Shown piece after piece: positions 7,142 through 64,000 of a DNA stretch of 64,000 nucleotides. The position numbers were made by a program, and so were the translations under genes. Every line of letters begins with the position of its first letter. The stretch's first letter is position 1. The stretch comes from an uncultured Bacteroidota bacterium (lineage in GTDB: Bacteria; Bacteroidota; Bacteroidia; Bacteroidales; P3), in the NCBI GenBank assembly GCA_902778925.1, contig CACYZN010000021.1:3847-67846 (forward strand), read 5' to 3'. Below the pieces are notes generated by a model. The model had not been told where the DNA came from. It saw only the letters and a program-made list of their open reading frames with translations, and ran no database searches.

Positions 7142-7382
7142 CACATTATTCCGCATCCCCGCCGGCCGCCGATGTTTAAAATATCAACATTTATTCAACA
7201 CCTCCGCACTCCGCTGCCCCCGCCGCCCCCCGTCGCCGTCGGCCCGGCACCCCCTGCGGTGCCAGAAATGTGCCTTTCTTAATACTATTTAACTTAAACC
7301 TTAAAGGATTTAGGATTTCGGTCGGATTTTGACCCCTTCGTAACCGGTTGATACCCAGCTCTGCCAGCCTTCTTCTCCGGAT

Positions 7383-7483
7383 CCCCTCCGGTATTTCTTA
7401 TGTACTTCTTATGTATTTCTTATGTATTTCTTATGTTTTAAACATAAATACAACATAAGATATACATAAGAACGACATAAGAG
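7383..7483. repeat. AT-rich palindromic element built from 11-bp units, copy A (TTCTTATGTA family)
   Basis: CCCCTCCGG then TATTTCTTATGTACTTCTTATGTATTTCTTATGTATTTCTTATGTTTTAAACATAAATACAACATAAGATATACATAAGAACGACATAAGAGA. It is near-identical to the copies at 39291-39383, 63583-63680 and (inverted) 50175-50278. Confidence 0.9.
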
Positions 7484-12067: not shown

Positions 12068-12090
12068 TTTGACGAAAAAGTCTTAAATGA

Positions 12091-12130
12091 AGAATGCAGC
12101 TGGTTCATCGAACCAGCTGCATTCTTTTAT
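12091..12130 (+). terminator. Rho-independent terminator after the ligase gene
   Basis: Perfect hairpin AGAATGCAGCTGGTTC-ATCG-AACCAGCTGCATTCT followed by TTTTAT. A-rich sequence upstream could allow bidirectional use. Confidence 0.8.
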
Positions 12131-12142
12131 ATGGCCCCTGTC

Positions 12143-12610
12143 TTATTCGGACAACTTGAACCGCATGCGCCAAACATGTCTGTCGGAGTCGTAATCATGG
12201 GAAATGATTTGGAAGCGGCCAATTTCCGACGTGTTTGCTACATGTGTGCCCACACATGCACACAGGTCATAGTCGCCGATGCGCACCAGCCGTAGTGTCT
12301 CGCTGGCATCGTCGGGGAGCTTCCATAGGTCTACCTCGGGCGGCACCTCTCCTCTCTTCACAAACTCATACGTCACAGGCAGGTGCTGTGCAATTACTTC
12401 GTTCACGCGGTGCTCTATTTCCAGCACCTGGGCCTCGGTGGGGCAAGCATCGAGCAGGTAGTCGCACTTGCTCTTCTTACGCTCGATGTGTGCATTGCGC
12501 GACCGAGGGCAGCCGAACATCCGCACCATCGTCTGATTCAGTATATGCTCCGCCGTATGCATCGGCGGATATTCCTCTTTGTTGTGGGCATTTAGAATGG
12601 GTTGTTCCAT
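12143..12610 (-). CDS. Alanyl-tRNA editing protein (AlaX-type, tRNA_SAD domain)
   Basis: 155 aa from ATG 12610. The Zn/editing motifs are HTAEH and CACVGTH. The upstream part of the track ORF is Arg-rich non-coding sequence. Confidence 0.7.
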   Translation of the reverse strand: MEQPILNAHNKEEYPPMHTAEHILNQTMVRMFGCPRSRNAHIERKKSKCDYLLDACPTEAQVLEIEHRVNEVIAQHLPVTYEFVKRGEVPPEVDLWKLPDDASETLRLVRIGDYDLCACVGTHVANTSEIGRFQIISHDYDSDRHVWRMRFKLSE

Positions 12611-12627
12611 AAAAGAGAAAGGGAATA

Positions 12628-12921
12628 TTATACCATCTGTTCGATGTTCCAGACAAAGGCTCGGATGCCTACTTCCTCGTTGCGTCGGTCGAGTTTGCGG
12701 ACGGCGAGAAGCAGTTCTTCTACCTTGGAGTCGTCGATTACTGTCATGACGGCATTGTTCATCTCGGGCCATGTGTGGGTACCACGATGGGGGTCGCCGT
12801 TTTCGTGGCCTCGACCTTGCACGTTCTCCCAGAAAGTGAAACCCCGGATGGAAAGCATGTCGAGCATGTATTCCACGCGCTCGTTATTGGCTTGGTTGTA
12901 TACTATAAGGACTGATTTCAT
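12628..12921 (-). CDS. Small transporter-associated protein, PII-like fold (PG0541-type)
   Basis: 97 aa, immediately downstream of the RND pump. The family assignment is from memory of similar small genes trailing Bacteroidota RND operons. Confidence 0.5.
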   Translation of the reverse strand: MKSVLIVYNQANNERVEYMLDMLSIRGFTFWENVQGRGHENGDPHRGTHTWPEMNNAVMTVIDDSKVEELLLAVRKLDRRNEEVGIRAFVWNIEQMV

Positions 12922-12932
12922 ATTTGGTCTGT

Positions 12933-15900
12933 TTACTGTTCATTAAGGTTGATATTCAGGAAAACAAACTTGCGGCGTTCGCGTTCCTTCTTCTCTATGT
13001 CGCCACGGCGGTTGAAGACACCGTAGAGCACGGGAACCACGATGAGGGTTACGAATGTAGAAACGGTAAGACCACCGATAACAACGAGTCCCATGGTGGT
13101 CCACATTTCGGAACCTTCGGACGTGGAGGTTGCCATTGGAATCATACCGAGAATGGTGGTGAAGGCAGTCATCATAACGGGGCGCAAACGGCTTTGGCCG
13201 CTCAAGGCAATAGCTTCGTTCAGCGCTATGCCACGTTCACGCATGAGATTGATGTAGTCGACCAAGACGATACCGTTTTTGACCACGATACCGATAAGAA
13301 GTATGAGGCCTAACATACCAATCATATCAATATTCTGACCGGTGATGAACATCATGAGAGCCACTCCGCTCAATGCGAATGGAATGGAGAACATGATGAT
13401 GAAAGGCTTGGAGAAAGATTCGAACTGTGAGGCCATAACGATGTAGACAAGCATGAGGATAAGTGCGCCAAGCATCATCATGTCGCGGGTGGAATCCTGT
13501 TGGTCCTTGTAGTTACCGGCCAGTGCAACGTGTATCTCAGAAGGTATGTTCATCTGGTCTAGTTCCTTCTGGACGCCCATGGCCAACTCTTGCAATGAAG
13601 TACGATATGGCATCACAGTAAGTGTAAGGTAACGTTGGCGGTTCTTGCGCTCTATAGTTGGCGGGCACCAATATTCTTCAACTTTGGCCAACTCTTCGAG
13701 CTTAATGATTCGTCCGGTAGCTGTGGGGATGGAAAGCTGTTCGATGTCGGATATTGACGAACGATATTCCTCTTTTAAGCGGACTACAATGTTATACTCC
13801 TCGCCGTCCTCTTTAAGGAAACCTGCAGCCATGCCGTTGACCCGGTTGCGGACATATAGAGCCACGGTAGAGCCGTTCAGACCGTGCAGGGCAAGTTTTT
13901 GTTTGTCAAAAGTAATCTTCAATTCGGCTCGGTCCTCATCACGGCTTACTTTCGTGTCGCGGGCTCCAGCGACATTCTGCTCGACTCGGCGACGCAACTC
14001 GTTTGTAAAGGCTGTTGTTTGGTCAAAGTCATAGCCGTATATCTCGACCGAAAGCGAATTGTTGCTTCCTCCACCCATACCGCCACCTTGATTCACTTGG
14101 AATGTGATAAGTTCAGGGTATTGTGCGAAACATTGACGGAGGTCTTCCTGCATTTCAAAGATGGTACGGTCGCGTTCGTACTTCTTTGTGCAGCGTATGG
14201 TCATGGAAATCTTGTTGTTGGTAGTCGAGTTGAAGAGTGCTGCCATGCCGGCATCATCATTCGAACCAGCCGATGTGGAGATTACCTCTACATCGTCGCC
14301 GAGCAAACGGTAGATATCTTGCTCCATCTGGCGAGCGGTTTTGAGAGTCTCTTCAATGCGGGTGCCACGCTGTAGTTCAGCGTTTATAGAAATGCGGCCA
14401 TTATCTTGCTCCTTCATGAAGTCCATACCAATCTTGCCCATCATAAAAGGCAGGAGGGTTAGAATGAAGAAAGCGAATGCGATAAGCAGGGTGATACGTT
14501 TGTGCCTTAAGCACCATCGAAGGATATTCGCATAGCCAGCCTCTATAGAATCGAATACACGACCAATTGTCTTGTCGAACGTAATCTTCTTCGAGGCTTG
14601 TTTCCTCTCGGCTTCCTCTCGTGCTGATTGGCTCAAGAAGAAAGGCTTCTCCTTGAGTATTTTCGAAGAAAGCATAGGAATAAGGGTGATGGCGGCAGTT
14701 GTAGATACGCAAACAACAATGGTTACAATCCAGCCCAACTCCTTCATGAAAATACCCATCATGCCAGGCAGCATGGTGAGAGGCACAAACACAGCAACGA
14801 GCACCAGAGTTGTGGCAATGACCGATGTCCATACCTCGTTTGTGGCGCATATTGCGGCTTCACGAGGATTCTCGCCTCGTTCGATATGTTTGGTAATGTT
14901 CTCTAGCACGACTATAGCATCGTCCACTACCATACCGATAGCCACGGTGAGCGAAGCCAGTGAGATGATATTGAGAGAACTGTCGGCCAGTAACAAGTAA
15001 ATGAAAGATGTTACGAGTGAGATAGGAATGGTAAGTGCAATAATGATGGTAGAACGCCAGTTTCCAAGGAAAACAAGCACAACCAGAACAACAAATAGCA
15101 GCGCGTAGAAGATACTTTCAGTAAGGCCGTTGATGGCATTTACGATTTCCTCAGAACCATCACGAATATTGGTGATCTTGATATCTGGCGGCAGTGTCTT
15201 TTTTATTTGTTCCATCTCGGCTCGTACCTCGTTTGCAATGGCTACTGTGTTGGCGCCAGTCTGTTTTGTGATGATTAAACGAGCACCATCGTGTCCGTTG
15301 ATCTTCTCGTCAAGGGAGAGGTCTTTGATAGTATCGCGTACTGTGGCAAGGTCGCGTACAAATATCTGTTTGCCTGTGGGCGTAGTGGTGACTACGATGT
15401 CGGAAATCTCTGAACTCTCAATATATTCACCCTTTACCCTCATCTGGTATTGCTCTTTGCCCATTTTTACGGTACCGGATGCTAAATCCAGATTGTTGGC
15501 ACTAATGGCATTGCCCACAAGTTCAAGTGGTATACCATAAGCATCGAGCTGTTTGGGGTCTAGGTCAATGTAAACATATCGTTCTGGCGCGCCGCTGACG
15601 GTTATATTGCCGATTCCGTCTACACGGTTAAGGACGTTGACTACATTATCCTCCAGTATACGATCCAATCCAGGATAACTTTCTTCAGCAGTGAAACCGT
15701 ATACCATGATTGGCATAGCACTCGAGTTGAGCTTAAGTATCATGGGGCGGGAAACGCCATCTGGGAGATTGTCATACAGTAAGTCGACATAGGAGCGAAT
15801 GTCGTTGAGCGCTTCATCAATATCTGACCCCCACTCGAATTCAAGTGAGACAACCGAGATGTTGTCCTTAGAAGTGGATGTGATGTTTTTCAGCCCATCT

Positions 15901-16121
15901 ACACTATTGAGAGAATTCTCTATCAATTTAGTGATGTTAGTCTCGATTTCGCTGGCATTGGCACCAGCGTAGGTGGTCATCACGGTTACATAAGGAGGGT
16001 CCATCTCTGGCATCTGGTCGATAGGCAGACGCGATAGCGAGAAAAGGCCCAACACAATCACAGCCACAAAAATGAGGCCTGTCGTGATAGGCTTGTTGAT
16101 TGCTGTTTTGTATATTGCCAT
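12933..16121 (-). CDS. RND efflux permease (AcrB/HAE1 family)
   Basis: 1062 aa. The N-terminus MAIYKTAINKPITTGLIFVAVIVLGLFSLSRLPIDQMPEMDPPYVTV is typical. It has a 12-TM architecture with two large periplasmic loops. Confidence 0.9.
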   Translation of the reverse strand: MAIYKTAINKPITTGLIFVAVIVLGLFSLSRLPIDQMPEMDPPYVTVMTTYAGANASEIETNITKLIENSLNSVDGLKNITSTSKDNISVVSLEFEWGSDIDEALNDIRSYVDLLYDNLPDGVSRPMILKLNSSAMPIMVYGFTAEESYPGLDRILEDNVVNVLNRVDGIGNITVSGAPERYVYIDLDPKQLDAYGIPLELVGNAISANNLDLASGTVKMGKEQYQMRVKGEYIESSEISDIVVTTTPTGKQIFVRDLATVRDTIKDLSLDEKINGHDGARLIITKQTGANTVAIANEVRAEMEQIKKTLPPDIKITNIRDGSEEIVNAINGLTESIFYALLFVVLVVLVFLGNWRSTIIIALTIPISLVTSFIYLLLADSSLNIISLASLTVAIGMVVDDAIVVLENITKHIERGENPREAAICATNEVWTSVIATTLVLVAVFVPLTMLPGMMGIFMKELGWIVTIVVCVSTTAAITLIPMLSSKILKEKPFFLSQSAREEAERKQASKKITFDKTIGRVFDSIEAGYANILRWCLRHKRITLLIAFAFFILTLLPFMMGKIGMDFMKEQDNGRISINAELQRGTRIEETLKTARQMEQDIYRLLGDDVEVISTSAGSNDDAGMAALFNSTTNNKISMTIRCTKKYERDRTIFEMQEDLRQCFAQYPELITFQVNQGGGMGGGSNNSLSVEIYGYDFDQTTAFTNELRRRVEQNVAGARDTKVSRDEDRAELKITFDKQKLALHGLNGSTVALYVRNRVNGMAAGFLKEDGEEYNIVVRLKEEYRSSISDIEQLSIPTATGRIIKLEELAKVEEYWCPPTIERKNRQRYLTLTVMPYRTSLQELAMGVQKELDQMNIPSEIHVALAGNYKDQQDSTRDMMMLGALILMLVYIVMASQFESFSKPFIIMFSIPFALSGVALMMFITGQNIDMIGMLGLILLIGIVVKNGIVLVDYINLMRERGIALNEAIALSGQSRLRPVMMTAFTTILGMIPMATSTSEGSEMWTTMGLVVIGGLTVSTFVTLIVVPVLYGVFNRRGDIEKKERERRKFVFLNINLNEQ

Positions 16122-16127
16122 AACTTA

Positions 16128-17171
16128 TTAATCTACTATTTCAAGTGTTGTTCCGTCGACAAGGCGAGCCTGGCCTGTAACTACGAGGCGGTCACCAGCC
16201 TTGATGGCATTGTTCTCTACGGGAATAATCTCTATGCGGTCGTCAAACCGTTGACCAAGTGTTACGGCTACACGGCGAGCGACGATACCATCGCCATTGG
16301 TATTGGCAACAAATACATATCGGTCGTTCGAACCTGTGAGTTTAAGTACGCTCTGATAAGGGACCACTATGGCATTTACCTCGCCCACGGCCAATTTGGT
16401 GCGCACGTACATACCTGGACGTATCTTCTCGGCAGAGTTGGGAATGTTGAGTTTTGCTTGGAAAGTGTGGCTCGAAGGGTCAATGGTTGGATATACAATC
16501 TCAATGGTTGCGGGGAATACTTGGTCTGGGTATATGTCGCTTTCGATGCTCACATGCATACCTTGTTTTACTAAAGGGAAGTATGTTTCAGGAATGTTGA
16601 TTATGGCTTTTAACCGGTTAATCTGAGTGAGTGTAAGGATTGGAGCTCCTGTATACATCTCACCGTCTTCATAGTTTTTTGCGCTTATTACGCCAGCAAA
16701 TTGGGCTTTGACAAAAGTGTTCTGGTCTTGGAAACGCTCGGTCTCTACCAATTGGTCGTATCCGGCTTTTGTTTGGTCATAGACTTGCTCACTTATAGAG
16801 CCACTTGCTTTCAATGCACTTACGCGGTCGAACTCGGTTTTTGTCGATGCTAGGTTGATGCGGGTAGTATTCAGTTGCGTTTGGTCCATACGTACCAGCA
16901 TAGCCCCCTTTTGTACGCGGCTTCCAACCTCGACGTATATATGCTCGATATGACCGGTTATACTGGGCGAGATATTCATGGTTTCATAGCCTTCAAGTGT
17001 AGCACTGAGCTCTAATGTCTTGGATATTCGCTCGCTTTCGAGGATTTGCACTTTTACCTTTTCGGCTTCTTTTTGGGTAGTGGTTGCACCTTTGTTGCCG
17101 CCATTGCCTCCACAGGCAGTAAGGATTGCTGTGGCAAGTACGATTGTTGCTAATCGGGTTGTTCTATTCAT
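16128..17171 (-). CDS. RND periplasmic adaptor (membrane fusion protein), lipoprotein
   Basis: ATG 17171 gives MNRTTRLATIVLATAILTACGG (lipobox). The rest is HlyD/AcrA-like barrel-sandwich and coiled-coil sequence. The track start 17201 is a TTG. Confidence 0.85.
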   Translation of the reverse strand: MNRTTRLATIVLATAILTACGGNGGNKGATTTQKEAEKVKVQILESERISKTLELSATLEGYETMNISPSITGHIEHIYVEVGSRVQKGAMLVRMDQTQLNTTRINLASTKTEFDRVSALKASGSISEQVYDQTKAGYDQLVETERFQDQNTFVKAQFAGVISAKNYEDGEMYTGAPILTLTQINRLKAIINIPETYFPLVKQGMHVSIESDIYPDQVFPATIEIVYPTIDPSSHTFQAKLNIPNSAEKIRPGMYVRTKLAVGEVNAIVVPYQSVLKLTGSNDRYVFVANTNGDGIVARRVAVTLGQRFDDRIEIIPVENNAIKAGDRLVVTGQARLVDGTTLEIVD

Positions 17172-17197
17172 ATTGTTGTTTTTTTTATTATCTATTA

Positions 17198-18595
17198 TCA
17201 ATTCTCAATGTTGAGGAGGTTCTCGAGAGCCAACTGTGCACTTATTACGCTCATTACAGCTTGTATGTAGTTGCTTTGGGCCGATATAATATCCGTCGAG
17301 GCATTGGTTACTTCGAGGCTGCTGGCGCGTCCGTATTTGTATTTTTCGGTCAGGTTGTCGAATACTCGTTTGGTTACGTCGAGATTGCGGTTCTGTATAT
17401 CGTAGTTTTCGAGAGCCGAGGCAAGGTCGTAGCTTAGTTGGTTGTACTGTACTTTTAGCCCATCTTCAGCTTGACGCTTGGTGTTGAGTGCTTCCTGATA
17501 GTCGATTTTTGCACTCTTTATATTTGCTGTGCGGGTGCCACTGGTGAAAATTGGCAGGCTCACAGATGCCCCAACCATGTTCGGGGGCGTCATGTTGAAG
17601 CCTTCATCCTTTCCAAAGTATGTCTTGGCGCTGTATTGATAATATGCCGAGAAGGTCGGTGTTAGGTCCATGCGGGCCATAGTTACGTTGCGGCGGGCTA
17701 ACTTCTCGTTTTGTTCAAGCAGTTGGTAATTGTAATTCTGTGTAATGTCGAACCCTTTGCCGAGTAGTTGTGTCGCAGCATCGACGCTAAGTATTTCTTC
17801 TATTGGTGTGGTGAGTTCCAGATGTACATTCACATCAGCTCCAAGCTGCAGCAACATCGAGTTGCGCAAAGCCTGTAAAGAACGGCGAGTACTGTTAATA
17901 CTACTTTTCATCGAGGCTACCTGTACCAGCAGTTTGTCTGCATCGACCTGTTCGGCAGCTCCAACATCAACGGCACTCTGACTTGTGGCGGCCAGTTGCT
18001 CGAGGTTTGCAAGGCTTGAGTCTAGTAGGCCCACCGTCTGTTCCATGACGAGTATGCTTACATATACGTTTTTTACGTTCGAACGGGTCTGCTGTTCTGT
18101 TTGGCGACGTGTTATGTCGGTCATCTGCATGGCAATGTTTTGCAGCATGGTACCAACAATCTGGGCACCCGTTATGGCCACCGAGGCTGTGATGCTGAAG
18201 GTGCCGCTGGGGTTCATCGCAATGCCACCGCTTTCACCGTCTTCCGTGGTGGTGGGTAAACTGAACGAAATAGGCATGGGACCCATGGGAGTGTTGATGA
18301 TCATGCTGTCAGGTAGCATGCTGCCACCGCGGCTGCCAAAGTTCATTGTGTAGCCGCACATGTTTTGGTAGTCGAAGCCAGCCTTCACCTGCGGTAGCAT
18401 GGTGCTGAGGGTCTTCCATCGGTTCAGTTCTGCTTTACGGGTCTCTAGGTTGGCGTTCTGCATTGCTGCATTGTGCTCCAAGGCGTAGTGCTGAGCCTCT
18501 TCCAGACTAAGTCTAAGGGTTTTACTCTCTTGTGCTTCGGCGCACATGGCAAGAGCCGCTAGAGCTATGACCAGAGTTACGCTTTTTAGTTTCAT
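17198..18595 (-). CDS. TolC-family outer-membrane efflux channel
   Basis: ATG 18595 gives MKLKSVTLVIALAALAMCAEAQ (signal peptide). The protein has two OEP repeats. The track start 18670 lies inside the TetR gene. Confidence 0.85.
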   Translation of the reverse strand: MKLKSVTLVIALAALAMCAEAQESKTLRLSLEEAQHYALEHNAAMQNANLETRKAELNRWKTLSTMLPQVKAGFDYQNMCGYTMNFGSRGGSMLPDSMIINTPMGPMPISFSLPTTTEDGESGGIAMNPSGTFSITASVAITGAQIVGTMLQNIAMQMTDITRRQTEQQTRSNVKNVYVSILVMEQTVGLLDSSLANLEQLAATSQSAVDVGAAEQVDADKLLVQVASMKSSINSTRRSLQALRNSMLLQLGADVNVHLELTTPIEEILSVDAATQLLGKGFDITQNYNYQLLEQNEKLARRNVTMARMDLTPTFSAYYQYSAKTYFGKDEGFNMTPPNMVGASVSLPIFTSGTRTANIKSAKIDYQEALNTKRQAEDGLKVQYNQLSYDLASALENYDIQNRNLDVTKRVFDNLTEKYKYGRASSLEVTNASTDIISAQSNYIQAVMSVISAQLALENLLNIEN

Positions 18596-18645
18596 ATCTT
18601 TTATTTCCTTTTTTTTCTCTCTTTTGTTTGTGTTTCTTTTTGCCC

Positions 18646-19296
18646 TTAGACAGTCTTTTCTGAGTTCCATCCAAGTTCTTCCAGCACTTGACGGAAGTGG
18701 GTCTCTGACTGCTCATAGCGTCCTATCGTTGCGGTGTTCATAAGCCCACGCAAGTAGGTGAAGCATATCTCGTTCAGACGGTATATATAGGCTTTGGGGT
18801 CGCTTACGTCAGACAGTCGGTGCTGTTGCATGAGGTCGCACAGAAAATCAACTGCAACATCAACATCGGCATCTGGGCGCAAGTAATTGTGGCTTTTTAC
18901 ATATTCCATGCCGTGTTTCATCATCGAATGCAGTGCTTCGGTATGGAGGTGAAAGAACCGGTCGTGTATTTCCGGGTAGTAGCGCTCTGCCTCTTCAATG
19001 AGACGGTGGTAGCGGTGGTTGGTGTCGGCGCCTACGCGCAACATGTACATAGCCACCAGCAATGGCTCGTCCACCTTCTGGTGTGCCTGTCGGTGCATGT
19101 CGTTTATTTGGTCGTGTACACGCATCAGGCATTCTGCCAGCAGTTCTTCTTTGTTGGCGAAAGTCTCGTACAATGTACGCTTCGACATGTGGAGCGCCTG
19201 TGCTATGTCGTCCATCGTTACGCCGCGGCACCCACGCGAATTAAACATCTGTAGTGCCGTCTCTACGATTTTTTCTTTTGTCTCTTCTGTCGCCAT
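18646..19296 (-). CDS. TetR/AcrR family transcriptional regulator
   Basis: The N-terminal HTH is IVETALQMFNSRGCRGVTMDDIAQALHMSKRTLYETFANKEELL. It heads the efflux operon. Confidence 0.9.
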   Translation of the reverse strand: MATEETKEKIVETALQMFNSRGCRGVTMDDIAQALHMSKRTLYETFANKEELLAECLMRVHDQINDMHRQAHQKVDEPLLVAMYMLRVGADTNHRYHRLIEEAERYYPEIHDRFFHLHTEALHSMMKHGMEYVKSHNYLRPDADVDVAVDFLCDLMQQHRLSDVSDPKAYIYRLNEICFTYLRGLMNTATIGRYEQSETHFRQVLEELGWNSEKTV

Positions 19297-19368
19297 CTTT
19301 GGTCAATACATTGTCTTTGTGTGCCAAGCATGCCTATCTGGCCTATGTCTCGGTGTGCAAAAGCGCTG

Positions 19369-19376
19369 CAAAAATA
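19369..19376 (-). promoter_or_regulatory. -7 box TATTTTTG for the TetR/efflux operon
   Basis: Plus strand CAAAAATA sits directly after the yajC terminator, about 70 nt upstream of ATG 19296. Confidence 0.45.
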
Positions 19377-19413
19377 CAAAAAAAACTCCGGAAACCAACA
19401 TAGTTTCCGGAGT
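19377..19413 (-). terminator. Rho-independent terminator of yajC
   Basis: Stem ACTCCGGAAAC (19385-19395) pairs with GTTTCCGGAGT (19403-19413). On the minus strand it is followed by a run of eight T. Confidence 0.8.
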
Positions 19414-19450
19414 TTTGTCTGTTAAATAATCTTAAAGCCTGCCTAGGCCA

Positions 19451-19732
19451 TTATTTGCGCTCTGGTATTGGACTTAATGTGGCTATTTGGACTTTGATTT
19501 TAACACCCGGAGCTACTTCTACGGTGGCATAGGCGCCGTCGCGACTTACAAATCTTACATGTATCCCGCCGGCCGTCATCAACTCGTCTCCGGCCTTTAG
19601 CGAGTCGCGGTATGCGGCTTCTTTTTTGGTCTTGTCGCTCTGTGGTTTAATCAGGAAGAGGTAAAACACGGCTATCATTGCCACCACCATTATGGCGGTC
19701 TTCCATCCATTTGCAATATCGAGTAGTATCAT
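19451..19732 (-). CDS. yajC: Preprotein translocase subunit YajC
   Basis: 93 aa with a single TM (AIMVVAMIAVFYLFLIKPQ), then LKAGDELMTAGGIHVRFVS. Confidence 0.85.
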   Translation of the reverse strand: MILLDIANGWKTAIMVVAMIAVFYLFLIKPQSDKTKKEAAYRDSLKAGDELMTAGGIHVRFVSRDGAYATVEVAPGVKIKVQIATLSPIPERK

Positions 19733-19789
19733 GTTGTTTGTTGTTTTGTATTGTTGTTCGACGGTGCTTATAACGGCTTACCTATAACT

Positions 19790-20488
19790 TTATTGTGCGA
19801 TGCCATCTTTTAATTGTTCGATTGTCCATGAGAAAGCTCTTGCCATGCGGCCAGCCGGGTTGTTGAAGTGGCCTCCTTGCTCCCATACTAGGGTGGTGCG
19901 GTTGGCCCCGAGTTGTGCCTGCAGACGGGCATGTTCCGCGCGTAGACGGTCGCCGCTGCGTGCCATAGTCTTGTTGCGTGTATACTCTTCACGGTCGCCG
20001 AGGCTGAGGTATACTTGCTTTGCCAGCATAGGGTGGCTGTCAGAGTATTGTGGCCAGTCGCCAGCCCACAACGATGGCGATGCGGCTGCGACAGCCTTGA
20101 AGACGGCAGTCTGGCAGGCTGCCCACATGGCAAACAGGCCCCCCAACGAATAGCCTCCAAGGACAGTAGGAATATCGTGAAGCGGAAGGGCAGGTAGCAC
20201 ATGGTCGGTGATGTAGCGAAGTGTCACTACGGCGCCACTGCCTACCTCTGGCCGGCGACTAACCACCTGCTCGGCCCAAGGCATCAACTCCAGTTCCCAG
20301 TCTACAATAGGCACTGCCACCAGTGCAAACGGTATGTTGGTGGCAGCGGCTATCTGCTCAACCTCTTTGTCCATATCCTCGCCTTGCCGTTCGCTCACAA
20401 CCTGTACTAGCAGCAAGCGAGGTATACCAGACGAGTATACTGTGCACTCGCGGTCGCCAATGGTGTAGTTCTGTTTATCTATTGTCAT
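19790..20488 (-). CDS. Alpha/beta hydrolase (esterase family)
   Basis: 232 aa. The nucleophile elbow is LGGYSLGGLFAMWAA, and a GGH motif lies near the C-terminus. Confidence 0.7.
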   Translation of the reverse strand: MTIDKQNYTIGDRECTVYSSGIPRLLLVQVVSERQGEDMDKEVEQIAAATNIPFALVAVPIVDWELELMPWAEQVVSRRPEVGSGAVVTLRYITDHVLPALPLHDIPTVLGGYSLGGLFAMWAACQTAVFKAVAAASPSLWAGDWPQYSDSHPMLAKQVYLSLGDREEYTRNKTMARSGDRLRAEHARLQAQLGANRTTLVWEQGGHFNNPAGRMARAFSWTIEQLKDGIAQ

Positions 20489-25353: not shown

Positions 25354-25430
25354 CAAAAAAAAATACAATCGCAATAAAAAAAGTACTCCCCGGCCATCAA
25401 AAAGCCCTCGCGCCCCCCTCGGCACCCCGT

Positions 25431-25575
25431 CCCCTCCGCTTCCGGTGGCCTCGTTGTACTATTGTTGTACTATTGTTGTACTATCGTTGTACTATTGAAA
25501 ACATAAGAACGATAGTACAACGATAGTACAACAATAGTACAACGATAGTACAACGACCGGAGGAGGGGAAGGGGC
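25431..25575. repeat. AT-rich palindromic element built from 11-bp units, variant copy B (TYGTTGTACTA family)
   Basis: Left arm 25451-25495 is (T[C/T]GTTGTACTA)x4. Right arm 25512-25556 is its reverse complement with 44 of 45 positions matching. The 16-nt loop is TGAAAACATAAGAACG. CCGG and CCCCTCC/GGAGGGG brackets flank the arms. Confidence 0.9.
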
Positions 25576-33509: not shown

Positions 33510-34283
33510 CTACCAGTCTTTGTCCGAGCGGTTCCTGCTGCCTATTTGTTCTTTCTTGACTTGCTCTTTTAGGGTCTGGCGCTCGTTGTTTTTCACAGCT
33601 TCGAGCATACGTTCGGCGTCTTGGCGGCGCTGGTTCTCAGCTTTGCTCGGTTGTTGCTGTTTTTGGTCTTGTTTTTGCTGTTGTTGCTGCTGGTTCTGTT
33701 GTTGCTGACCTTGTTGCTGCTGGTCTTGCTGTTGGTTCTGCTGCTGTTGCTGGTTTTGTTGCTTGTCTTGACCGCCACCGCCCCCTTGTTGCTGTTGCTG
33801 CTGTTGTTGCTGGGCTTGCTGCAGTAGTTTTTTGGCATAGGCCAGGTTGTAGCGGGTGTCGTTGTCTTTGGGTTCCAGTTTTAGCGACTCTTGGTAGGCT
33901 TCCACGGCTTGCTGGAACATCTGCATGCCTTGGCCACCTTCGTTGTTGGCTAGCCCGTTTTCCACAAGGCTGTTACCCTTATTGTGCAGTGTTCTGGCAC
34001 GTTGATGCTTGTCAAGCTTTGGGTTGGCAAGGCTTTGGTCGAAATGGCGCACCGCCTCGTCGTATTTCTTCTGGCGATACAATGCGTTGCCAAGGTTGTA
34101 CTGTCCGCGGTAGTCGGTACTGTCGCTCTCCAGCGCCTGTCGGTAGTTTGTCTCGGCCTGGTCGAAGTGCTCTTTGTTGTAGTTTCTGTTGCCCTCGCGT
34201 ATCAAGTGTCGGTTGGCTTGGCCATGGGCGATGCCCACGGCGGCCATAGCGAGCATGAGTATAAGTGTTCTCTTGATGTTCAT
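33510..34283 (-). CDS. batC: BatC (TPR protein with long Gln-rich tail)
   Basis: ATG 34283 overlaps the batB stop (ATGA) and gives MNIKRTLILMLAMAAVGIAHGQ. TPR repeats are followed by a roughly 60-residue Q-rich tract. The upstream part of the track ORF is non-coding. Confidence 0.75.
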   Translation of the reverse strand: MNIKRTLILMLAMAAVGIAHGQANRHLIREGNRNYNKEHFDQAETNYRQALESDSTDYRGQYNLGNALYRQKKYDEAVRHFDQSLANPKLDKHQRARTLHNKGNSLVENGLANNEGGQGMQMFQQAVEAYQESLKLEPKDNDTRYNLAYAKKLLQQAQQQQQQQQQGGGGGQDKQQNQQQQQNQQQDQQQQGQQQQNQQQQQQKQDQKQQQPSKAENQRRQDAERMLEAVKNNERQTLKEQVKKEQIGSRNRSDKDW

Positions 34284-39135: not shown

Positions 39136-39272
39136 ATCTGTTTTTGCTTTTTTTTTATTTTGAATTTTCCAATAAACTTAAAAAGCCCCCCTTTATTGCC
39201 TTTTTAACAATCTTTTTGATTTCGCCGAAAACCACTGCCCCTGCAAGCGCCTCACTATCAGTCCCGCCACTG

Positions 39273-39423
39273 CTCCCCTCCGCTTCCCCTCCGGTAGTTC
39301 TTATGTACTTCTTATGTATTTCTTATGTATTTCTTATGTTTTAAACATAAATACAACATAAGAAATACATAAGAACGACATAGGGCGGGGAAGGGGTGGA
39401 AAACGGGGGCGTGGAGAGTGGGT
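39273..39423. repeat. AT-rich palindromic element built from 11-bp units, copy C, with C-rich left and G-rich right flanks
   Basis: CTCCCCTCCGCTTCCCCTCCGG, then a TTCTTATGTA-unit palindrome, then GGGCGGGGAAGGGGTGGAAAACGGGGGCGTGGAGAGTGGG. Confidence 0.9.
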
Positions 39424-39492
39424 AACAGGGTGGCTGTTGAAAAAAGTTGTGAAAAAAATACGAGAAAAATCATATATATAAAGAAAAAGTTG

Positions 39493-46142: not shown

Positions 46143-47479
46143 ATAGCTTGTGAGTAAATATCCTTTCGGACCCGTAGTCCCTGCAGCAGTCCACGCAGGG
46201 TGAGGTAGACCATGAATGCCATCCACAGTATGTTGTTCCACACGTGCTCGTCGTCGGTGCCATAGTAGTATTTCAAGCCGTAGTATACCGCAAAGAAAGC
46301 GGCAGTGGCCACAAACATGGCGTTGCGCATGGTGCGGGTGGCTGTGGCGCCGATGAAGATGCCGTCGAAGAGAAATGCCGCAAAGCCGCAGACGGGTATG
46401 ACGAGCACCCAGGTCATGTAGTTTCCGGCGGCGGCAATGACGTCCTGCTGGTCGGTGAAGATATGCAGGAACTGGTTGCCGAAGGCTGCGTACAGGCCTG
46501 TGAAGACCACCGTCAGCGCCATACCCCACATGATAAGTAGGCGCACGGCGAGCTTCAGGTGCCGTTGTTGTTTGGCACCTATGTGGCGGCCCACGAGGCT
46601 CTCGCCTGCATAGGCGAAGCCGTCCATGATATAGCTGAAGAGGGTGAAGAACTGCAGCAGTAGGGCGTCGACGGCCAGTATCTGGTCGCTGATGTGGCTC
46701 GAGGCCGCAGTGATGAAGGTGAACACCCCCGAGAGGCACAGTGTGCGCAGGAAGATGTCGCCGTTCACCTTGAAGAAGCGTCGCATCTCGTCCCAGTGCA
46801 GTGCCTCCTTGAAAAGTGAAAGGTGAAAGGTGAAAGGAGAGAAGTTCTTGTCACGGCGGAGACGTCGGCGCAGGAAGAGAATGCCCAGGACAAGGCCTGT
46901 GTAGTTGGCCAGCACAGTTCCGAGGGCCACTCCGAAGATGTCCCATTTCAGCACAATTACGAAAAGCAGCGACAGAGCAATATTGACGCAGTTCAGGGCT
47001 ATGGCTATCCACATGGGTGTCTTCGAGTCCTGCATGCCTATGAACCACCCCTTGATGGCGTAGAGCCCCAGGGTGGCTGGTGCCGCCCAGATGCGCACGA
47101 AGAAGTAGGTCAGTGCGAGGCCCAGCACATTGCTGCTGCCCTCAAAGATATAGGGTACAGCCAGCGATATGGGCCATTGCAGCGCTATGAGCAGCACGGC
47201 TATGGAGAGGGCGATGGCACAGGCGCGAATCAGTATCTTCACGGCCTCGTCCCATCGTTCGGCGCCGAAAGCCTGGGCGGTGAAGCCGCTGGTGCCCATG
47301 CGCAGGAATCCGAAGTTCCAGTAGATGAGGTTGAATATCTGTGTGCCGATGGCTATGGCGCCTATGTGGTCGCTCGACAGATGTCCCACAATGGCCATGT
47401 CCACCATGCCGAGCAGCGGCACGGTGATGTTGGTCACTATGTTGGGCAACGCCAGCCCCAGTATGCGCCTATTCATCAA
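46139..47479 (-). CDS. MATE family efflux transporter
   Basis: 446 aa. The N-terminus is MMNRRILGLALPNIVTNITVPLLGMVDMAIVGHL. The topology is 12 TM helices. Confidence 0.85.
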   Translation of the reverse strand: MMNRRILGLALPNIVTNITVPLLGMVDMAIVGHLSSDHIGAIAIGTQIFNLIYWNFGFLRMGTSGFTAQAFGAERWDEAVKILIRACAIALSIAVLLIALQWPISLAVPYIFEGSSNVLGLALTYFFVRIWAAPATLGLYAIKGWFIGMQDSKTPMWIAIALNCVNIALSLLFVIVLKWDIFGVALGTVLANYTGLVLGILFLRRRLRRDKNFSPFTFHLSLFKEALHWDEMRRFFKVNGDIFLRTLCLSGVFTFITAASSHISDQILAVDALLLQFFTLFSYIMDGFAYAGESLVGRHIGAKQQRHLKLAVRLLIMWGMALTVVFTGLYAAFGNQFLHIFTDQQDVIAAAGNYMTWVLVIPVCGFAAFLFDGIFIGATATRTMRNAMFVATAAFFAVYYGLKYYYGTDDEHVWNNILWMAFMVYLTLRGLLQGLRVRKDIYSQAI

Positions 47480-50014: not shown

Positions 50015-50078
50015 CACAAAAAACTCAATACATGTAATAATTCTAAGTTCTAAGTGCTAAATTCTAAGTGCTGAGTCT

Positions 50079-50162
50079 CACCTTTCACCTTTCACCTTTC
50101 ACCTTTCACCTCACACCTCTCCACTCTCCACTCTCCACTCTCCACTCTCACCTCTCCACTCC
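50079..50162. repeat. 84-nt tract of twelve 7-nt units: (CACCTTT)x4, CACCTCA, CACCTCT, (CCACTCT)x4, CACCTCT, CCACTCC
   Basis: Counted directly from the sequence. The tract is pyrimidine-only except for A and abuts palindromic copy D. Confidence 0.9.
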
Positions 50163-50174
50163 GAGCCATCCTCT

Positions 50175-50278
50175 CCGGCCGTTCTTATGTCGTTCTTATG
50201 TATATCTTATGTCGTATTTATGTTTAAAACATAAGAAATACATAAGAAATACATAAGAAGTACATAAGAACTACCGGG
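50175..50278. repeat. AT-rich palindromic element built from 11-bp units, copy D (inverted relative to copies A, C and E)
   Basis: The reverse complement reads CCGGTAGTTCTTATGTACTTCTTATGTATTTCTTATGTATTTCTTATGTTTTAAACATAAATACGACATAAGATATACATAAGAACGACATAAGAACGGCCGG. Confidence 0.9.
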
Positions 50279-50505
50279 ATAGAAAGTGGTGAAAAACCGG
50301 GGTTTTTGGGTGGAATGTTAAAATAGTGTTAAAAAAAGGTGGCTTTTAGTTAAAATTATGTTATGCTGGCCAGCTTGGCGCCCTTCAATCTTTTTACTTT
50401 TAACTTCCATTTTTTAACTTTCCCGCCCTCTTGGTGCGCAATAATTGCGGGGATGTGTCGTTACTAAAAAGTCAAAAAACAGAACGAGGAAATTATAGTT
50501 TAGCG

Positions 50506-61455: not shown

Positions 61456-61463
61456 AATTATTT

Positions 61464-61498
61464 CAATTCTCAATTATCAATTATCAATTTTCAATTAC
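61464..61498. repeat. (CAATTNT)x5 heptamer tract filling the gyrB-pepE spacer
   Basis: CAATTCT CAATTAT CAATTAT CAATTTT CAATTAC, read directly. Confidence 0.85.
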
Positions 61499-61499
61499 C

Positions 61500-63455
<1,956 letters not shown>

Positions 63456-63474
63456 TTATTTCAAGATTAGATTG

Positions 63475-63482
63475 CAAAGATA
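63475..63482 (-). promoter_or_regulatory. -7 box TATCTTTG for gyrB
   Basis: Plus strand CAAAGATA lies 32 nt upstream of ATG 63443. Confidence 0.45.
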
Positions 63483-63577
63483 CAACCTTTTTTTCAATTG
63501 GCAGTGCTTTTTTTTGAGCCATGTTTCAACATTTTTTCAACCACCTTCACCCCGTCCTCACCTCTATCGCTCCCCAT

Positions 63578-63728
63578 CCCCTCCGGTAGTTCTTATGTAC
63601 TTCTTATGTATTTCTTATGTATTTCTTATGTTTTAAACATAAATACAACATAAGAAATACATAAGAAATACATAAGAACGGCAGGACCGGAACCGGTGGG
63701 GAACGGTAGGGGTGGCAGGGTGGCGGGC
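63578..63728. repeat. AT-rich palindromic element built from 11-bp units, copy E, with a G-quadruplex-type right flank
   Basis: CCCCTCCGG, then the TTCTTATGTA-unit palindrome (the right arm has one extra ATACATAAGAA unit), then GGCAGGACCGGAACCGGTGGGGAACGGTAGGGGTGGCAGGGTGGCGGGC. Confidence 0.9.
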
Positions 63729-63781
63729 AATAAATCGGGCTGTGTCGCGTTATGGTGGATGAATATGAAATACTGCACGAT

Positions 63782-64000
63782 ATGAAGATATTGGGACTGA
63801 TGTCGGGCACCTCGCTCGACGGGGTCGACCTGGCTTTGTGCGACATCGACGAAAAAAGCTACTCGATCGAGGCGGCGCAGACCGTGCCCTATCCACCCGA
63901 ATGGCGCCAGCGGCTCTCCACCCTCGAGCATGTCTCGGCTGTCGACTATGTTCAAGCGCATGTTGAATTGGGTCATTTCTTTGGGCGGATAATCAACGAT
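63782..64000 (+). CDS. anmK: Anhydro-N-acetylmuramic acid kinase, N-terminal fragment (continues past the window end)
   Basis: MKILGLMSGTSLDGVDLALCDI is the AnmK N-terminal signature. An in-frame ATG at 63752 is an alternative start. It is not in the ORF track because there is no stop in the window. Confidence 0.75.
   Translation, partial: MKILGLMSGTSLDGVDLALCDIDEKSYSIEAAQTVPYPPEWRQRLSTLEHVSAVDYVQAHVELGHFFGRIIND

What the first reader, a model, noticed from the sequence alone, without database searches (positions are those of the whole stretch)
63578..63728. Copy E upstream of gyrB: an extra arm unit and a canonical G-quadruplex motif in the right flank
The right arm carries an additional ATACATAAGAA unit compared with copy C, so unit copy number varies between copies. 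The right flank at 63698-63727 reads GGGG-AACGGTA-GGGG-TGGCA-GGG-TGGC-GGG. This satisfies the strict G3+N1-7 G-quadruplex rule, counted by hand. The left flank (CACCCCGTCCTCACCTCTATCGCTCCCCATCCCCTCCGG) has mirrored C4 runs, which are G-runs on the sense strand of gyrB. gyrB expression is classically supercoiling-sensitive in other bacteria. A structure-prone element directly upstream of its promoter (-7 box at 63475-63482) is therefore a concrete test case for the supercoil-sensor idea.
Basis: partly seen in the sequence, partly recalled or inferred. Interest (0 to 1): 0.65.

Follow-up and report, generated by a model that had tools for sequence, protein, structure and literature searches.

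The report
Iteron palindrome between divergent promoters
The sequence upstream of gyrB is one of roughly a hundred near-identical copies of a hairpin-forming repeat built from 11-base units that sits between almost every pair of back-to-back genes in this uncultured rumen bacterium and its relatives; its G-quadruplex motif is incidental and it is not special to gyrB.

Summary
The described sequence is real. The G3+N1-7 motif at 63698-63727, the C-runs on the left and the gyrB -7 box are all there. Copy E is about 190 bp long. It has an AT-rich palindromic core of 11-bp units (4 forward, 3 inverted) with a C-rich left flank and a G-rich right flank. It is one of five such elements in the window and about 100 per genome equivalent. 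All five divergent spacers in the window carry one; no convergent or tandem spacer does. In relatives (GyrB 95-98% identical), period-11 arrays with other unit sequences occupy 14 of 16 divergent spacers, against 1 of 123 other spacers. The strict G4 motif occurs in only 5 of 23 flanks, about what G-richness alone predicts, and it pairs with the C-rich flank in the long hairpin. The element is not gyrB-specific. It is also not a REP/RAYT element, a classical MITE, a terminator or a known RNA. My best reading is a copy-pasted DNA-level spacer element tied to the negatively supercoiled zone between divergent promoters. Its core is the predicted first site to open or extrude as a cruciform. That function is inferred, not shown. 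A purely selfish element and a protein-binding iteron array remain serious rivals.

The parts
63475..63482 (-). gyrB -7 promoter box (TATCTTTG on the minus strand). It lies outside the element, 66 nt left of its C-rich flank.
   Evidence: identical in conspecific contigs L001-L004
63548..63585 (.). C-rich, G-poor left flank (C 0.56, G 0.06 over the 50 nt left of the core), ending in the family motif TCCCCTCCGG. It pairs with the G-rich right flank in the extended hairpin.
63586..63633 (+). Left arm: four tandem 11-bp units, GTAG/GTAC/GTAT/GTAT + TTCTTAT.
63631..63637 (.). AT-only centre of the palindrome (TTTTAAA; predicted loop 3-4 nt). TATGTTTT at 63627-63634 is the only near-consensus -7 box facing anmK.
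63635..63679 (+). Right arm: one variant unit (ACATAAATACA) followed by three ACATAAGAA units, inverted relative to the left arm. The same asymmetry is present in all A-type copies.
63680..63730 (.). G-rich right flank (G 0.54, C 0.18), containing the strict G4 motif 63698-63727 and the shared end motif GGCAGGGTGGC.
63752..64000 (+). Start of anmK, the divergent neighbour of gyrB. No strict -7 box lies between the element and its ATG.
7340..7482 (.). Copy A, between a glycosyltransferase gene (-) and nfo (+). In this strain it lacks 64 nt (G-rich flank plus one unit) that another strain keeps.
25405..25572 (.). Copy B: same architecture and flanks but with unit GTTGTACTATY. The loop keeps one A-type unit (AAACATAAGAAC). 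The left flank has a strict G4 motif on the minus strand.
39240..39433 (.). Copy C, in a divergent spacer. The right flank is G4-like only under a relaxed loop rule.
50078..50300 (.). Copy D: core inverted relative to A, C and E. The C-rich flank is made of 7-bp arrays (TCACCTT, CTCTCCA). No G3 runs.

Best explanation
Copy E belongs to a high-copy, lineage-specific family of dispersed intergenic palindromes built from 11-bp iterons.

**Structure.** Each element has a C-rich flank, a CCGG boundary, 4 forward units, a short AT loop, 3 inverted units, a second CCGG boundary and a G-rich flank, about 190 bp in all.

**Spread (inferred).** The copies share the same internal imperfections, so they spread by copying from a common master sequence. 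They have no target-site duplications or terminal inverted repeats. The copying mechanism is unknown; gene conversion is possible.

**Placement (shown).** They occupy the untranscribed spacer between divergently transcribed genes. This holds for all five such spacers in the window. It also holds, with other 11-bp unit sequences, in related species.

**Link to supercoiling (inferred by elimination).** What mainly sets a divergent spacer apart from a long tandem spacer is that negative supercoils from both transcription units accumulate there. It is also never read through.

**Proposed action (inferred).**
- The element acts at the DNA level.
- The 22% G+C palindromic core, clamped by 60-78% G+C flanks, is the cheapest local site to unwind or extrude as a cruciform.
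- It therefore absorbs torsional stress between the two promoters. This would buffer or insulate them from each other and from global supercoiling changes.
- An 11-bp unit equals the in vivo helical repeat, so unit gain or loss changes capacity by one turn without rotating the flanking promoters relative to each other.

The G-quadruplex motif is a by-product of the G-rich flank. The position next to gyrB is incidental.

**Confidence.** About 0.9 for the descriptive part (family, architecture, copy number, placement). About 0.35 for the torsional-buffer mechanism.
For: **Family and architecture**
- Five copies in the window, with 23 unit matches against 0.5 expected.
- Nine more copies in one rumen metagenome.
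- Shared asymmetric imperfections across all A-type copies.

**Copy number**
- Core unitigs are at 56-134x the depth of the single-copy flanks in three DNA metagenomes.

**Placement**
- The window has exactly five minus-to-plus strand switches, and each carries an element.
- With called genes across the window, its extensions and four related genomes, period-11 arrays are in 14/16 divergent, 0/17 convergent and 1/106 tandem spacers (Fisher 3e-16).
- Among spacers of at least 120 nt the figures are 14/16 against 1/17.
- Strict -7 boxes lie outside the element on both sides in copies A and B, on the right side in C and on the gyrB side in E.

**Architecture conserved while sequence is not**
- Units seen in relatives: TGGTAGGAGTT, CGCCTGATCAA, TTCTTCAGTAG, TTGGTACGGTG, TGTTCTACCAT.

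**Structure-proneness**
- Single-stranded DNA hairpins fold at -23 to -54 kcal/mol, z -9.5 to -15.
- Core G+C is 0.22-0.32 against flanks of 0.42-0.78 (0.60-0.78 where the flank is intact).
- A-type cores rank 1, 3, 5 and 6 among the most AT-rich 90-bp windows of the 64-kb window.
- In a one-run superhelical-opening model at sigma -0.055, the A-type core is the dominant opening site in 4 of 4 A-type spacers, with p 0.76-1.0.

**Supporting observations and literature**
- One array-less divergent spacer upstream of gyrB in a relative has a 23-nt alternating purine-pyrimidine tract instead. This is another supercoil-absorbing motif.
- In E. coli, predicted stress-destabilised sites cluster in divergent spacers, and destabilisation there rises when the genes are transcribed (PMC2211533).
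Against: - No experiment or strand-resolved RNA data bears on the element. Metatranscriptome contigs were uninformative.
- Some relatives carry one-armed arrays that cannot form hairpins. L098 has z -0.9, and most of the distant TCTTATGT arrays are one-armed.
- Several relatives' arrays are not AT-rich or have G+C-rich centres (L097, L100).
- For the B-type copy, the model opens the neighbouring promoter region rather than the core.
- Near-identity of about 100 copies is the signature of selfish spread, not of locally selected structure.
- The opening model was my own simplification, with parameters recalled from memory.
- The sample is 16 divergent spacers, not a whole genome.
- One B-type copy lies in a tandem spacer (L095 19615-19813).
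Confidence: 0.4

Rival explanations
1. A purely selfish, non-autonomous foldback or REPIN-like mobile element with no host function. It either inserts preferentially into torsionally stressed or single-stranded DNA, or it survives only where it is never transcribed. Either route leaves it in divergent spacers.
For: - About 100 near-identical copies.
- Subfamilies A and B within one genome, and different families in sister species.
- Shared imperfections prove copying from a master sequence.
- A strain-level 64-nt deletion in copy A and 11-bp indels.
- Absence of TSDs and TIRs, as in HUH-type (IS200/RAYT-like) mobilisation.
Against: - No cognate transposase was found. The only RAYT-like gene seen, in L097, is flanked by its own unrelated GTAG-REPs.
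- Occupancy of divergent spacers is near saturation (14/16), while long tandem spacers are almost empty (1/15).
- The conserved part is the centre, while the outer flanks vary. This is the reverse of a MITE.
- A degenerate array upstream of gyrB is retained across seven related contigs despite bacterial deletion bias.
- No empty site was seen among conspecific contigs.
Confidence: 0.3
2. Arrays of binding sites (iterons) for an unidentified DNA-binding protein that polymerises with one subunit per helical turn. The model is ParR on parC, omega-type ribbon-helix-helix repressors, OmpR/PhoB-type regulators or DnaA on its oppositely oriented oriC arrays. The protein would organise or co-regulate divergent promoter pairs.
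For: - An exact 11-bp period in every family.
- Forward-plus-inverted arrays, like the two sets of five 11-bp iterons of parC (PMC2241845).
- An 8-nt core, TCTTATGT, with a variable 3-nt spacer recurs in 3-6-unit arrays in many rumen and gut Bacteroidales MAGs. These arrays lie upstream of outward-facing -7 boxes (46/94 sides against 14/94 inward).
Against: - Unit sequences differ between species whose GyrB is 95-98% identical, and up to three unrelated units coexist in one genome. This would need several fast-co-evolving proteins.
- Spacers, loops and imperfections are as conserved as the cores within a genome.
- Arrays are absent upstream of promoters in tandem context.
- The TCTTATGT conservation is partly imposed by my search pattern.
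Confidence: 0.18
3. An RNA-level bidirectional insulator. Any transcript entering from either side first reads a C-rich, G-poor (rut-like) tract and then a 45-bp hairpin. Antisense or upstream-antisense transcripts would be terminated or cleaved before they become sense RNA of the neighbouring divergent gene.
For: - The strand asymmetry is always C-rich 5' and G-rich 3' on both strands.
- The one tandem-context copy has a 130-nt extremely C-rich tract facing the upstream gene.
- The hairpin is very stable.
Against: - No U-tract and no terminator-like site.
- No evidence that the element is transcribed.
- Elements are missing from convergent and tandem spacers, where termination is needed.
- It does not explain the 11-bp period or the one-armed arrays.
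Confidence: 0.07
4. One reading: a G-quadruplex plus i-motif in the flanks of copy E senses supercoiling and tunes the relaxation-sensitive gyrB promoter.
For: - The strict G4 motif at 63698-63727 is real.
- 2 of the 4 strict motifs in the window lie in element flanks.
- A very strong one, GGGGATGGGGAGGGGTGTGGGGGG, lies in the flank of copy A in another strain.
Against: - The motif is on the anmK side, about 220 nt from the gyrB -7 box. The gyrB-side flank fails the strict rule.
- Only 5 of 23 flanks have a strict motif, against 2.6 expected from composition.
- The G-tract is base-paired to the C-rich flank in the lowest-energy fold.
- Elements occur at every divergent spacer irrespective of gene, and gyrB has none when it is not divergent.
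Confidence: 0.04

Closest known systems
REP / REPIN elements mobilised by RAYT transposases (PMC3116915, PMC3733652)
   Same: High-copy, species-specific, extragenic repeats. Inverted doublets form long hairpins in single-stranded DNA. They have no TSD or TIR and have been proposed to interact with supercoiling.
   Different: - REPs are 20-40-bp imperfect palindromes with a GTAG or CGTC tag and are not built of tandem iterons.
- REPINs are reported as randomly distributed in extragenic space, not confined to divergent spacers.
- The RAYT-like gene found in a relative is flanked by its own GGGCGTAC-type GTAG-REPs, not by the 11-bp arrays.
Bacterial MITEs, including BrickBuilt of Porphyromonas gingivalis (PMC4596501, PMC10969869)
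   Same: Non-coding, exclusively intergenic, multi-copy and AT-rich. BrickBuilt, also from Bacteroidales, carries internal tandem direct repeats and affects neighbouring transcription.
   Different: - MITEs have conserved terminal inverted repeats and target-site duplications around an arbitrary interior.
- BrickBuilt has 23-nt direct repeats between IS-like TIRs.
- Here the conserved part is the centre, the arms themselves are the tandem repeats, the outer flanks vary, and no TSD or TIR is seen.
Foldback (FB) transposons of Drosophila (from my own knowledge; not checked in the library)
   Same: Long inverted arms composed of tandem short repeats whose unit changes from the outside inward, almost abutting at the centre. 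This is the closest architectural analogue.
   Different: They are eukaryotic, kilobase-scale and transposase-associated, with no known tie to divergent promoters. No homology is implied.
Iteron arrays bound by polymerising DNA-binding proteins, e.g. parC/ParR of plasmid R1 (PMC2241845)
   Same: Two sets of tandem 11-bp repeats flanking or adjoining a promoter region. One protein dimer binds per 11-bp unit.
   Different: parC is a single plasmid locus with a cognate ParR gene next to it. Here there are about 100 chromosomal copies, several unit sequences per genome, inverted rather than direct sets, and no cognate protein identified.
Supercoil-responsive non-B DNA in divergent spacers (SIDD sites, PMC2211533; transcription-driven cruciform extrusion, from my own knowledge)
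   Same: Location between divergent genes. An AT-rich, easily opened segment with an inverted repeat and a short AT loop. It is the predicted first site to open under negative superhelical stress.
   Different: Known SIDD sites are ordinary AT-rich promoter DNA, not a dispersed, copy-pasted repeat family. No bacterial genome is known to me that equips its divergent spacers with a dedicated palindromic repeat.
Promoter-proximal G-quadruplex motifs
   Same: Copy E and four other flanks meet the G3+N1-7 rule on the non-template strand upstream of a gene.
   Different: The motif is not conserved across copies, is not enriched beyond composition, and is embedded in a competing duplex or hairpin.

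Membership tests
REP/REPIN (RAYT-associated) | 20-40-bp imperfect palindrome carrying a conserved GTAG or CGTC tag at one end | tested here: not met
   The arm is four tandem 11-bp units, not a short palindrome. 'GTAG' at 63586 is just the unit linker GTAN, which reads GTAT or GTAC in other copies.
REP/REPIN (RAYT-associated) | Cognate RAYT (Y1 transposase) gene flanked by the same repeats | tested here: not met
   tblastn found no RAYT in the window or in loci of the same species. The RAYT-like gene in L097 scores 64.7 bits against NF047646 (below the cut-off of 80) and is flanked by unrelated GGGCGTAC REPs. The whole genome was not available.
REP/REPIN (RAYT-associated) | Inverted doublet forming a long hairpin; high copy number; extragenic | tested here: met
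   Hairpin z -9.5 to -15. About 100 copies. Always intergenic.
MITE (including BrickBuilt) | Conserved terminal inverted repeats related to an IS element | tested here: not met
   The outer flanks are compositionally similar but cannot be aligned across copies. The centre is the conserved part.
MITE (including BrickBuilt) | Target-site duplications flanking the element | tested here: not met
   No direct repeats at the boundaries of A-type copies or of the sharply bounded 47-nt L098 arrays.
MITE (including BrickBuilt) | Presence/absence polymorphism (mobility) | tested here: inconclusive
   Copy E is present in all 4 other conspecific contigs. Copy A shows only an internal 64-nt deletion. No empty site was sampled.
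Canonical G-quadruplex regulatory motif | Four G3+ runs with loops of 1-7 nt | tested here: met
   63698-63727.
Canonical G-quadruplex regulatory motif | Conservation or enrichment of the motif across homologous elements | tested here: not met
   5 of 23 flanks against 2.6 expected from composition. G3+ runs average 3.1 per flank against 2.6 in shuffles.
Canonical G-quadruplex regulatory motif | Folding into a G4 in vitro or in vivo | not testable with these tools
   Needs circular dichroism, melting or chemical probing.
Intrinsic terminator | G+C-rich hairpin followed by a U-tract at the 3' end of a transcription unit | tested here: not met
   No terminator-like site at 63300-63900. The element lies between two gene starts.
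Known structured RNA (Rfam) | Match at a family's gathering score | tested here: not met
   The whole window gave only a tRNA. Permissive hits are eukaryotic miRNA-hairpin models at 17-47 bits against thresholds of 60-230.
Cruciform-forming / stress-destabilised (SIDD) site | Long inverted repeat with short AT-rich centre; lowest local duplex stability | tested here: met
   Arms are 82% complementary over 57 nt in the longest pairing and 97% over 35 nt in a shifted register. The predicted loop is 3-4 nt. The core is the dominant opening site in the one-run model for 4 of 4 A-type copies. The B-type copy is not.
Cruciform-forming / stress-destabilised (SIDD) site | Actual extrusion or opening at physiological superhelical density | not testable with these tools
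   Needs plasmid topoisomer or in vivo probing experiments.
Protein-bound iteron array (parC/ParR-like) | Tandem units of one helical turn, in two sets | tested here: met
   Period 11 in all arrays.
Protein-bound iteron array (parC/ParR-like) | Cognate binding protein | not tested
   No candidate identified. It would need phylogenetic profiling over whole genomes or biochemistry.

The most novel reading that the evidence does not exclude
A whole clade of uncultured rumen Bacteroidales equips essentially every divergent promoter pair with a dedicated architectural DNA element. The element is defined by its period (11 bp, one in vivo helical turn), its two-armed symmetry and its pyrimidine-to-purine strand polarity, not by its sequence. 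It would work as a quantised torsional buffer or insulator. Capacity would be adjustable in one-turn steps by unit gain and loss, and the element would be renewed by copy-paste of species-specific variants. That would be a new class of bacterial genome-organising element.
Probability: 0.25. Interest if true: 0.85.

Novelty: new variant of a known kind. Interest (0 to 1): 0.62.

Why it matters
- **Open question.** Why bacteria keep dispersed intergenic palindromes has been debated since REPs were found. A link to supercoiling has long been suspected but is hard to isolate.
- **What this family offers.** Its placement is almost binary: divergent spacers yes, all others no. Its sequence is replaceable but its 11-bp period is fixed. 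That makes a torsional or architectural role directly testable with simple reporter and topoisomer experiments.
- **Practical points.** These about 100 identical hairpins per genome break short-read assemblies of abundant rumen Bacteroidales; contigs end in them. Their species-specific units are ready-made strain and species markers.
- **For the original claim.** The practical message is negative. A G4 oligo experiment would probably be positive in vitro, yet it would say little about the element.

Tried and rejected
- **RNA evidence.** Metatranscriptome runs exist only as unstranded contigs. Core depth there (63-127) fits about 1x DNA carry-over of a 100-copy repeat as well as it fits transcription, so nothing can be concluded.
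- **Rfam.** Nothing at gathering scores. Permissive hits are generic hairpin (miRNA) models.
- **Plasmid collection.** blastn found no match.
- **Literature search for the unit sequence.** Only primers turned up. A search for papers on 11-bp repeats, divergent promoters and cruciforms found nothing relevant.
- **REP/RAYT membership.** Rejected.
- **Classical MITE.** Rejected, because there are no TIRs or TSDs and the centre is the conserved part.
- **Terminator.** Rejected.
- **Units as arrays of degenerate -7 boxes (TAnnTTTG).** A- and B-type units are 1-2 mismatches away, and in one Paludibacteraceae MAG the last unit is a perfect TATGTTTG. Units of relatives (TGGTAGGAGTT, CGCCTGATCAA) do not fit, so I dropped this as a general explanation. 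It remains possible that the centre of copy E (TATGTTTT, 63627) serves anmK, which has no other box.
- **Units as DnaA boxes.** By eye the best match is 5-6 of 9 positions, which is not convincing.
- **My own gene callers.** On the 61 MAG loci they were too gappy for a clean context count (18 of 44 divergent). I used the -7 box orientation test instead and based the main statistic only on loci with supplied gene calls.
- **First G4-in-flank count.** One search used wrong arm boundaries and was redone.

Full report
**1. What is at the coordinates**

Positions 63444-63751 are the 308-bp spacer between gyrB (61500-63443, minus strand) and anmK (from 63752, plus strand).

Reading left to right, the spacer contains:
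- the gyrB -7 box (TATCTTTG on the minus strand, 63475-63482);
- a C-rich, G-poor tract (63548-63585) ending in TCCCCTCCGG;
- four tandem 11-bp units TTCTTATGTAY (63586-63633);
- an all-AT centre;
- one variant unit plus three inverted units ACATAAGAA (63635-63679);
- a G-rich tract (63680-63730).

The G-rich tract contains GGGGAACGGTAGGGGTGGCAGGGTGGCGGG at 63698-63727.

The whole of 63530-63735 folds as single-stranded DNA into one long hairpin (-51.4 kcal/mol, z -9.9). In that fold the G-tract pairs with the C-rich left flank. The 'mirrored C4 runs' are thus the other arm of an extended inverted repeat.

The claimed extra unit relative to copy C is not an indel. E and C align gap-free, and C's last unit is degenerate.

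**2. It is one member of a family**

The window holds five such elements.
- A: 7391-7482.
- B: 25451-25556, with a different unit (GTTGTACTATY) but the same flanks. Its loop keeps one A-type unit.
- C: 39294-39382.
- D: 50175-50277, with the core inverted.
- E: the copy under study.

All five fold as hairpins, with z -9.5 to -15.

Nine more A-type copies came from one rumen metagenome, mostly at contig ends. Two more B-type copies lie just outside the window in a conspecific 106-kb contig.

All A-type copies share the same asymmetries: the GTAC linker in the second unit and the ACATAAATACA variant next to the loop. They therefore descend from one master sequence.

The core is essentially identical between copies. 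The flanks keep only their composition (mean G 0.40, C 0.15 on the outward-reading strand) and the CCGGAGGGGA boundary.

In three DNA metagenomes, the core unitigs have 56-134 times the depth of the adjacent single-copy DNA. That implies roughly 100 copies per genome equivalent.

The organism is an uncultured bovine-rumen Bacteroidales with 57% G+C and T9SS-type cargo.

**3. Placement**

A curated strand map shows that the window switches from minus-strand to plus-strand genes exactly five times. Each switch carries one element. The four convergent junctions and about 38 tandem junctions carry none.

I then fetched loci with supplied gene calls around gyrB from relatives whose GyrB is 95-98% identical. 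Their divergent spacers also carry period-11 tandem arrays, mostly two-armed, but with other units.

| Locus | Unit(s) | Note |
|---|---|---|
| L097 | TGGTAGGAGTT / CCTACCAACTC | all 3 divergent spacers, including gyrB and dnaA upstream |
| L098 | CGCCTGATCAA x3.5 | one-armed; 47 nt identical at both divergent spacers |
| L100 / L101 | TTCTTCAGTAG | two-armed; differ by one 11-bp unit |
| L096 | TTGGTACGGTG | 1 of 3 divergent spacers |
| L102 | TGTTCTACCAT | B-like unit |

Counting TRF arrays of period 11 with at least 2.5 copies gives 14 of 16 divergent, 0 of 17 convergent and 1 of 106 tandem spacers (Fisher 3e-16). Among spacers of at least 120 nt the figures are 14 of 16 against 1 of 17.

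gyrB has an array whenever it is divergently arranged, except in L096. It has none in L098, where it sits in a tandem arrangement. The element is therefore tied to gene geometry, not to gyrB.

A pattern scan of reference genomes found 3-6-unit TCTTATGT arrays at 11-bp spacing in many other rumen and gut Bacteroidales MAGs. Most are one-armed and all are intergenic. Outward-facing -7 boxes lie within 300 nt on 46 of 94 sides, against 14 of 94 inward-facing.

**4. The G-quadruplex**

Strict motifs number 4 in the window, against 2.0 +/- 1.5 in shuffles. Two of them lie in element flanks (E right, B left).

Over 23 distinct flanks, 5 have a strict motif against 2.6 expected from composition. G-runs are barely more clustered than in shuffles.

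Copies A and D in the window have none. Copy A in another strain has a strong one, inside a 64-nt segment that the window strain has lost by a deletion between short CTTC repeats.

G-richness is a family property. The G4 rule is met only sporadically.

**5. What it is not**

- Not a known RNA.
- Not a terminator.
- Not on plasmids.
- Not a REP/REPIN. It has no short tagged palindrome. The RAYT-like gene found in a relative has its own unrelated GTAG-REPs.
- Not a classical MITE or a BrickBuilt element. It has no TIRs or TSDs, and the centre rather than the ends is conserved.

**6. Mechanism**

*Shown:*
- copy-paste origin;
- about 100 copies;
- hairpin potential;
- AT-rich core (0.22 G+C) between G+C-rich clamps;
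- strict preference for divergent spacers;
- conservation of period, symmetry and strand polarity without conservation of sequence.

*Inferred:*

Two things set a divergent spacer apart from a long tandem spacer. It receives negative supercoils from both sides, and it is never read through. So the element is linked to torsional stress, either as its function or as its insertion or survival condition.

A-type cores rank 1, 3, 5 and 6 among the most AT-rich 90-bp windows of the window. In a one-run superhelical-opening model at sigma -0.055 they are the dominant opening site in 4 of 4 A-type spacers. This model was my own script, and I recalled the Benham-type parameters from memory. The B-type core is not the dominant site.

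I also made a back-of-envelope estimate with textbook constants, which is not a tool result. Cruciform extrusion of about 95 bp relaxes about 9 turns at a cost of roughly 15-20 kcal/mol. In a 4-kb domain it should therefore become favourable near sigma -0.03. That would leave the core poised to extrude when the neighbours are transcribed.

This agrees with published E. coli work. There, predicted destabilised sites cluster in divergent spacers, and destabilisation rises with transcription (PMC2211533).

I therefore favour a torsional buffer or insulator role. I hold it at only about 0.35, for these reasons:
- one-armed and G+C-rich arrays in relatives do not fit it;
- selfish spread explains the near-identity of copies better;
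- the exact 11-bp period is just as well explained by a protein that binds one unit per turn, as ParR does on the 11-bp iterons of parC (PMC2241845).

**7. Verdict**

The interpretation as a gyrB-specific G4 sensor is not supported.

What lies behind it is more interesting than proposed. It is a repeat family defined by period and architecture that marks divergent promoter pairs across a clade of uncultured rumen Bacteroidales. I found no description of it in the searchable literature.

Noticed in passing
window 61463-61497; L096/L097 11945-11987; L093 11947-11983: The short gyrB-to-peptidase-S51 spacer (co-oriented genes) also holds a tandem array in each species, but with other periods and units: TCAATTA x5 here and CTAGGAACGC x4.3 in relatives. 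Period-7 arrays also occur at 46810-46837 (TGAAAGG) and at other tandem or convergent junctions in relatives (CTTTCAC, TTTCAAT). This clade seems to fill different spacer classes with different repeat periods.
   Followed up: partly
L097 3680-4640: A RAYT-like Y1 transposase gene (178 aa; NF047646 at 64.7 bits, below the cut-off). Inverted GTAG-tagged REPs (GGGCGTAC...GTACGCCC) flank it on both sides. A 32-bp x7.5 tandem array of that REP precedes it. This is a separate repeat system in a sister species and is absent from the window.
   Followed up: partly
L096 9891-9913: One of the two divergent spacers without an 11-bp array (gyrB upstream in this relative) contains CGCGCGCGTGCGCGTGTACATAT. 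This is a 23-nt alternating purine-pyrimidine tract of the kind that forms Z-DNA under negative supercoiling.
   Followed up: no
window 7482-7483 vs L095 6083-6146: A strain polymorphism: the window strain lacks 64 nt of copy A (the whole G-rich flank plus one unit) between short CTTC repeats. The surrounding 470 nt are otherwise identical.
   Followed up: yes
window 63680-63751 and 63627-63634: anmK has no recognisable -7 box between the element and its ATG. The only near-consensus box facing it (TATGTTTT) is at the centre of the palindrome. If that box is used, the anmK leader would consist of the right arm and the G-rich flank.
   Followed up: partly
L002 2945-4676; L100 12005-13441; L103 4505-5941: The spacer downstream of gyrB is a strain-variable insertion point. 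One conspecific contig has an EcoRV-like endonuclease plus a D12 methyltransferase there. Relatives have a DUF4357 gene.
   Followed up: no
window 12000-20000: A low-G+C island (0.46-0.50 against 0.57 overall) containing an RND-type efflux transporter and neighbours. It may be horizontally acquired.
   Followed up: no
L097 818-1672; L100 1195-2077: The long spacer upstream of dnaA (probable oriC, with TTATCAACA/TTATCCACC boxes) also carries 11-bp arrays at its far end, next to the divergent neighbour's promoter.
   Followed up: no
L062 1-260; L052 1-260: A Sphingobacteriia MAG has a nested palindrome in which several different 11-bp units follow each other from outside to centre (CTCTTATATCT, CTCTTATGTYT ... 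TAGGGAGAGGA x5). This resembles the unit gradient of eukaryotic foldback elements.
   Followed up: no
window 33650-33821: A complex 6/9/12/15/21/30-bp tandem repeat (TGTTGC-based) lying inside predicted coding sequence on the minus strand. It probably encodes a low-complexity protein segment.
   Followed up: no
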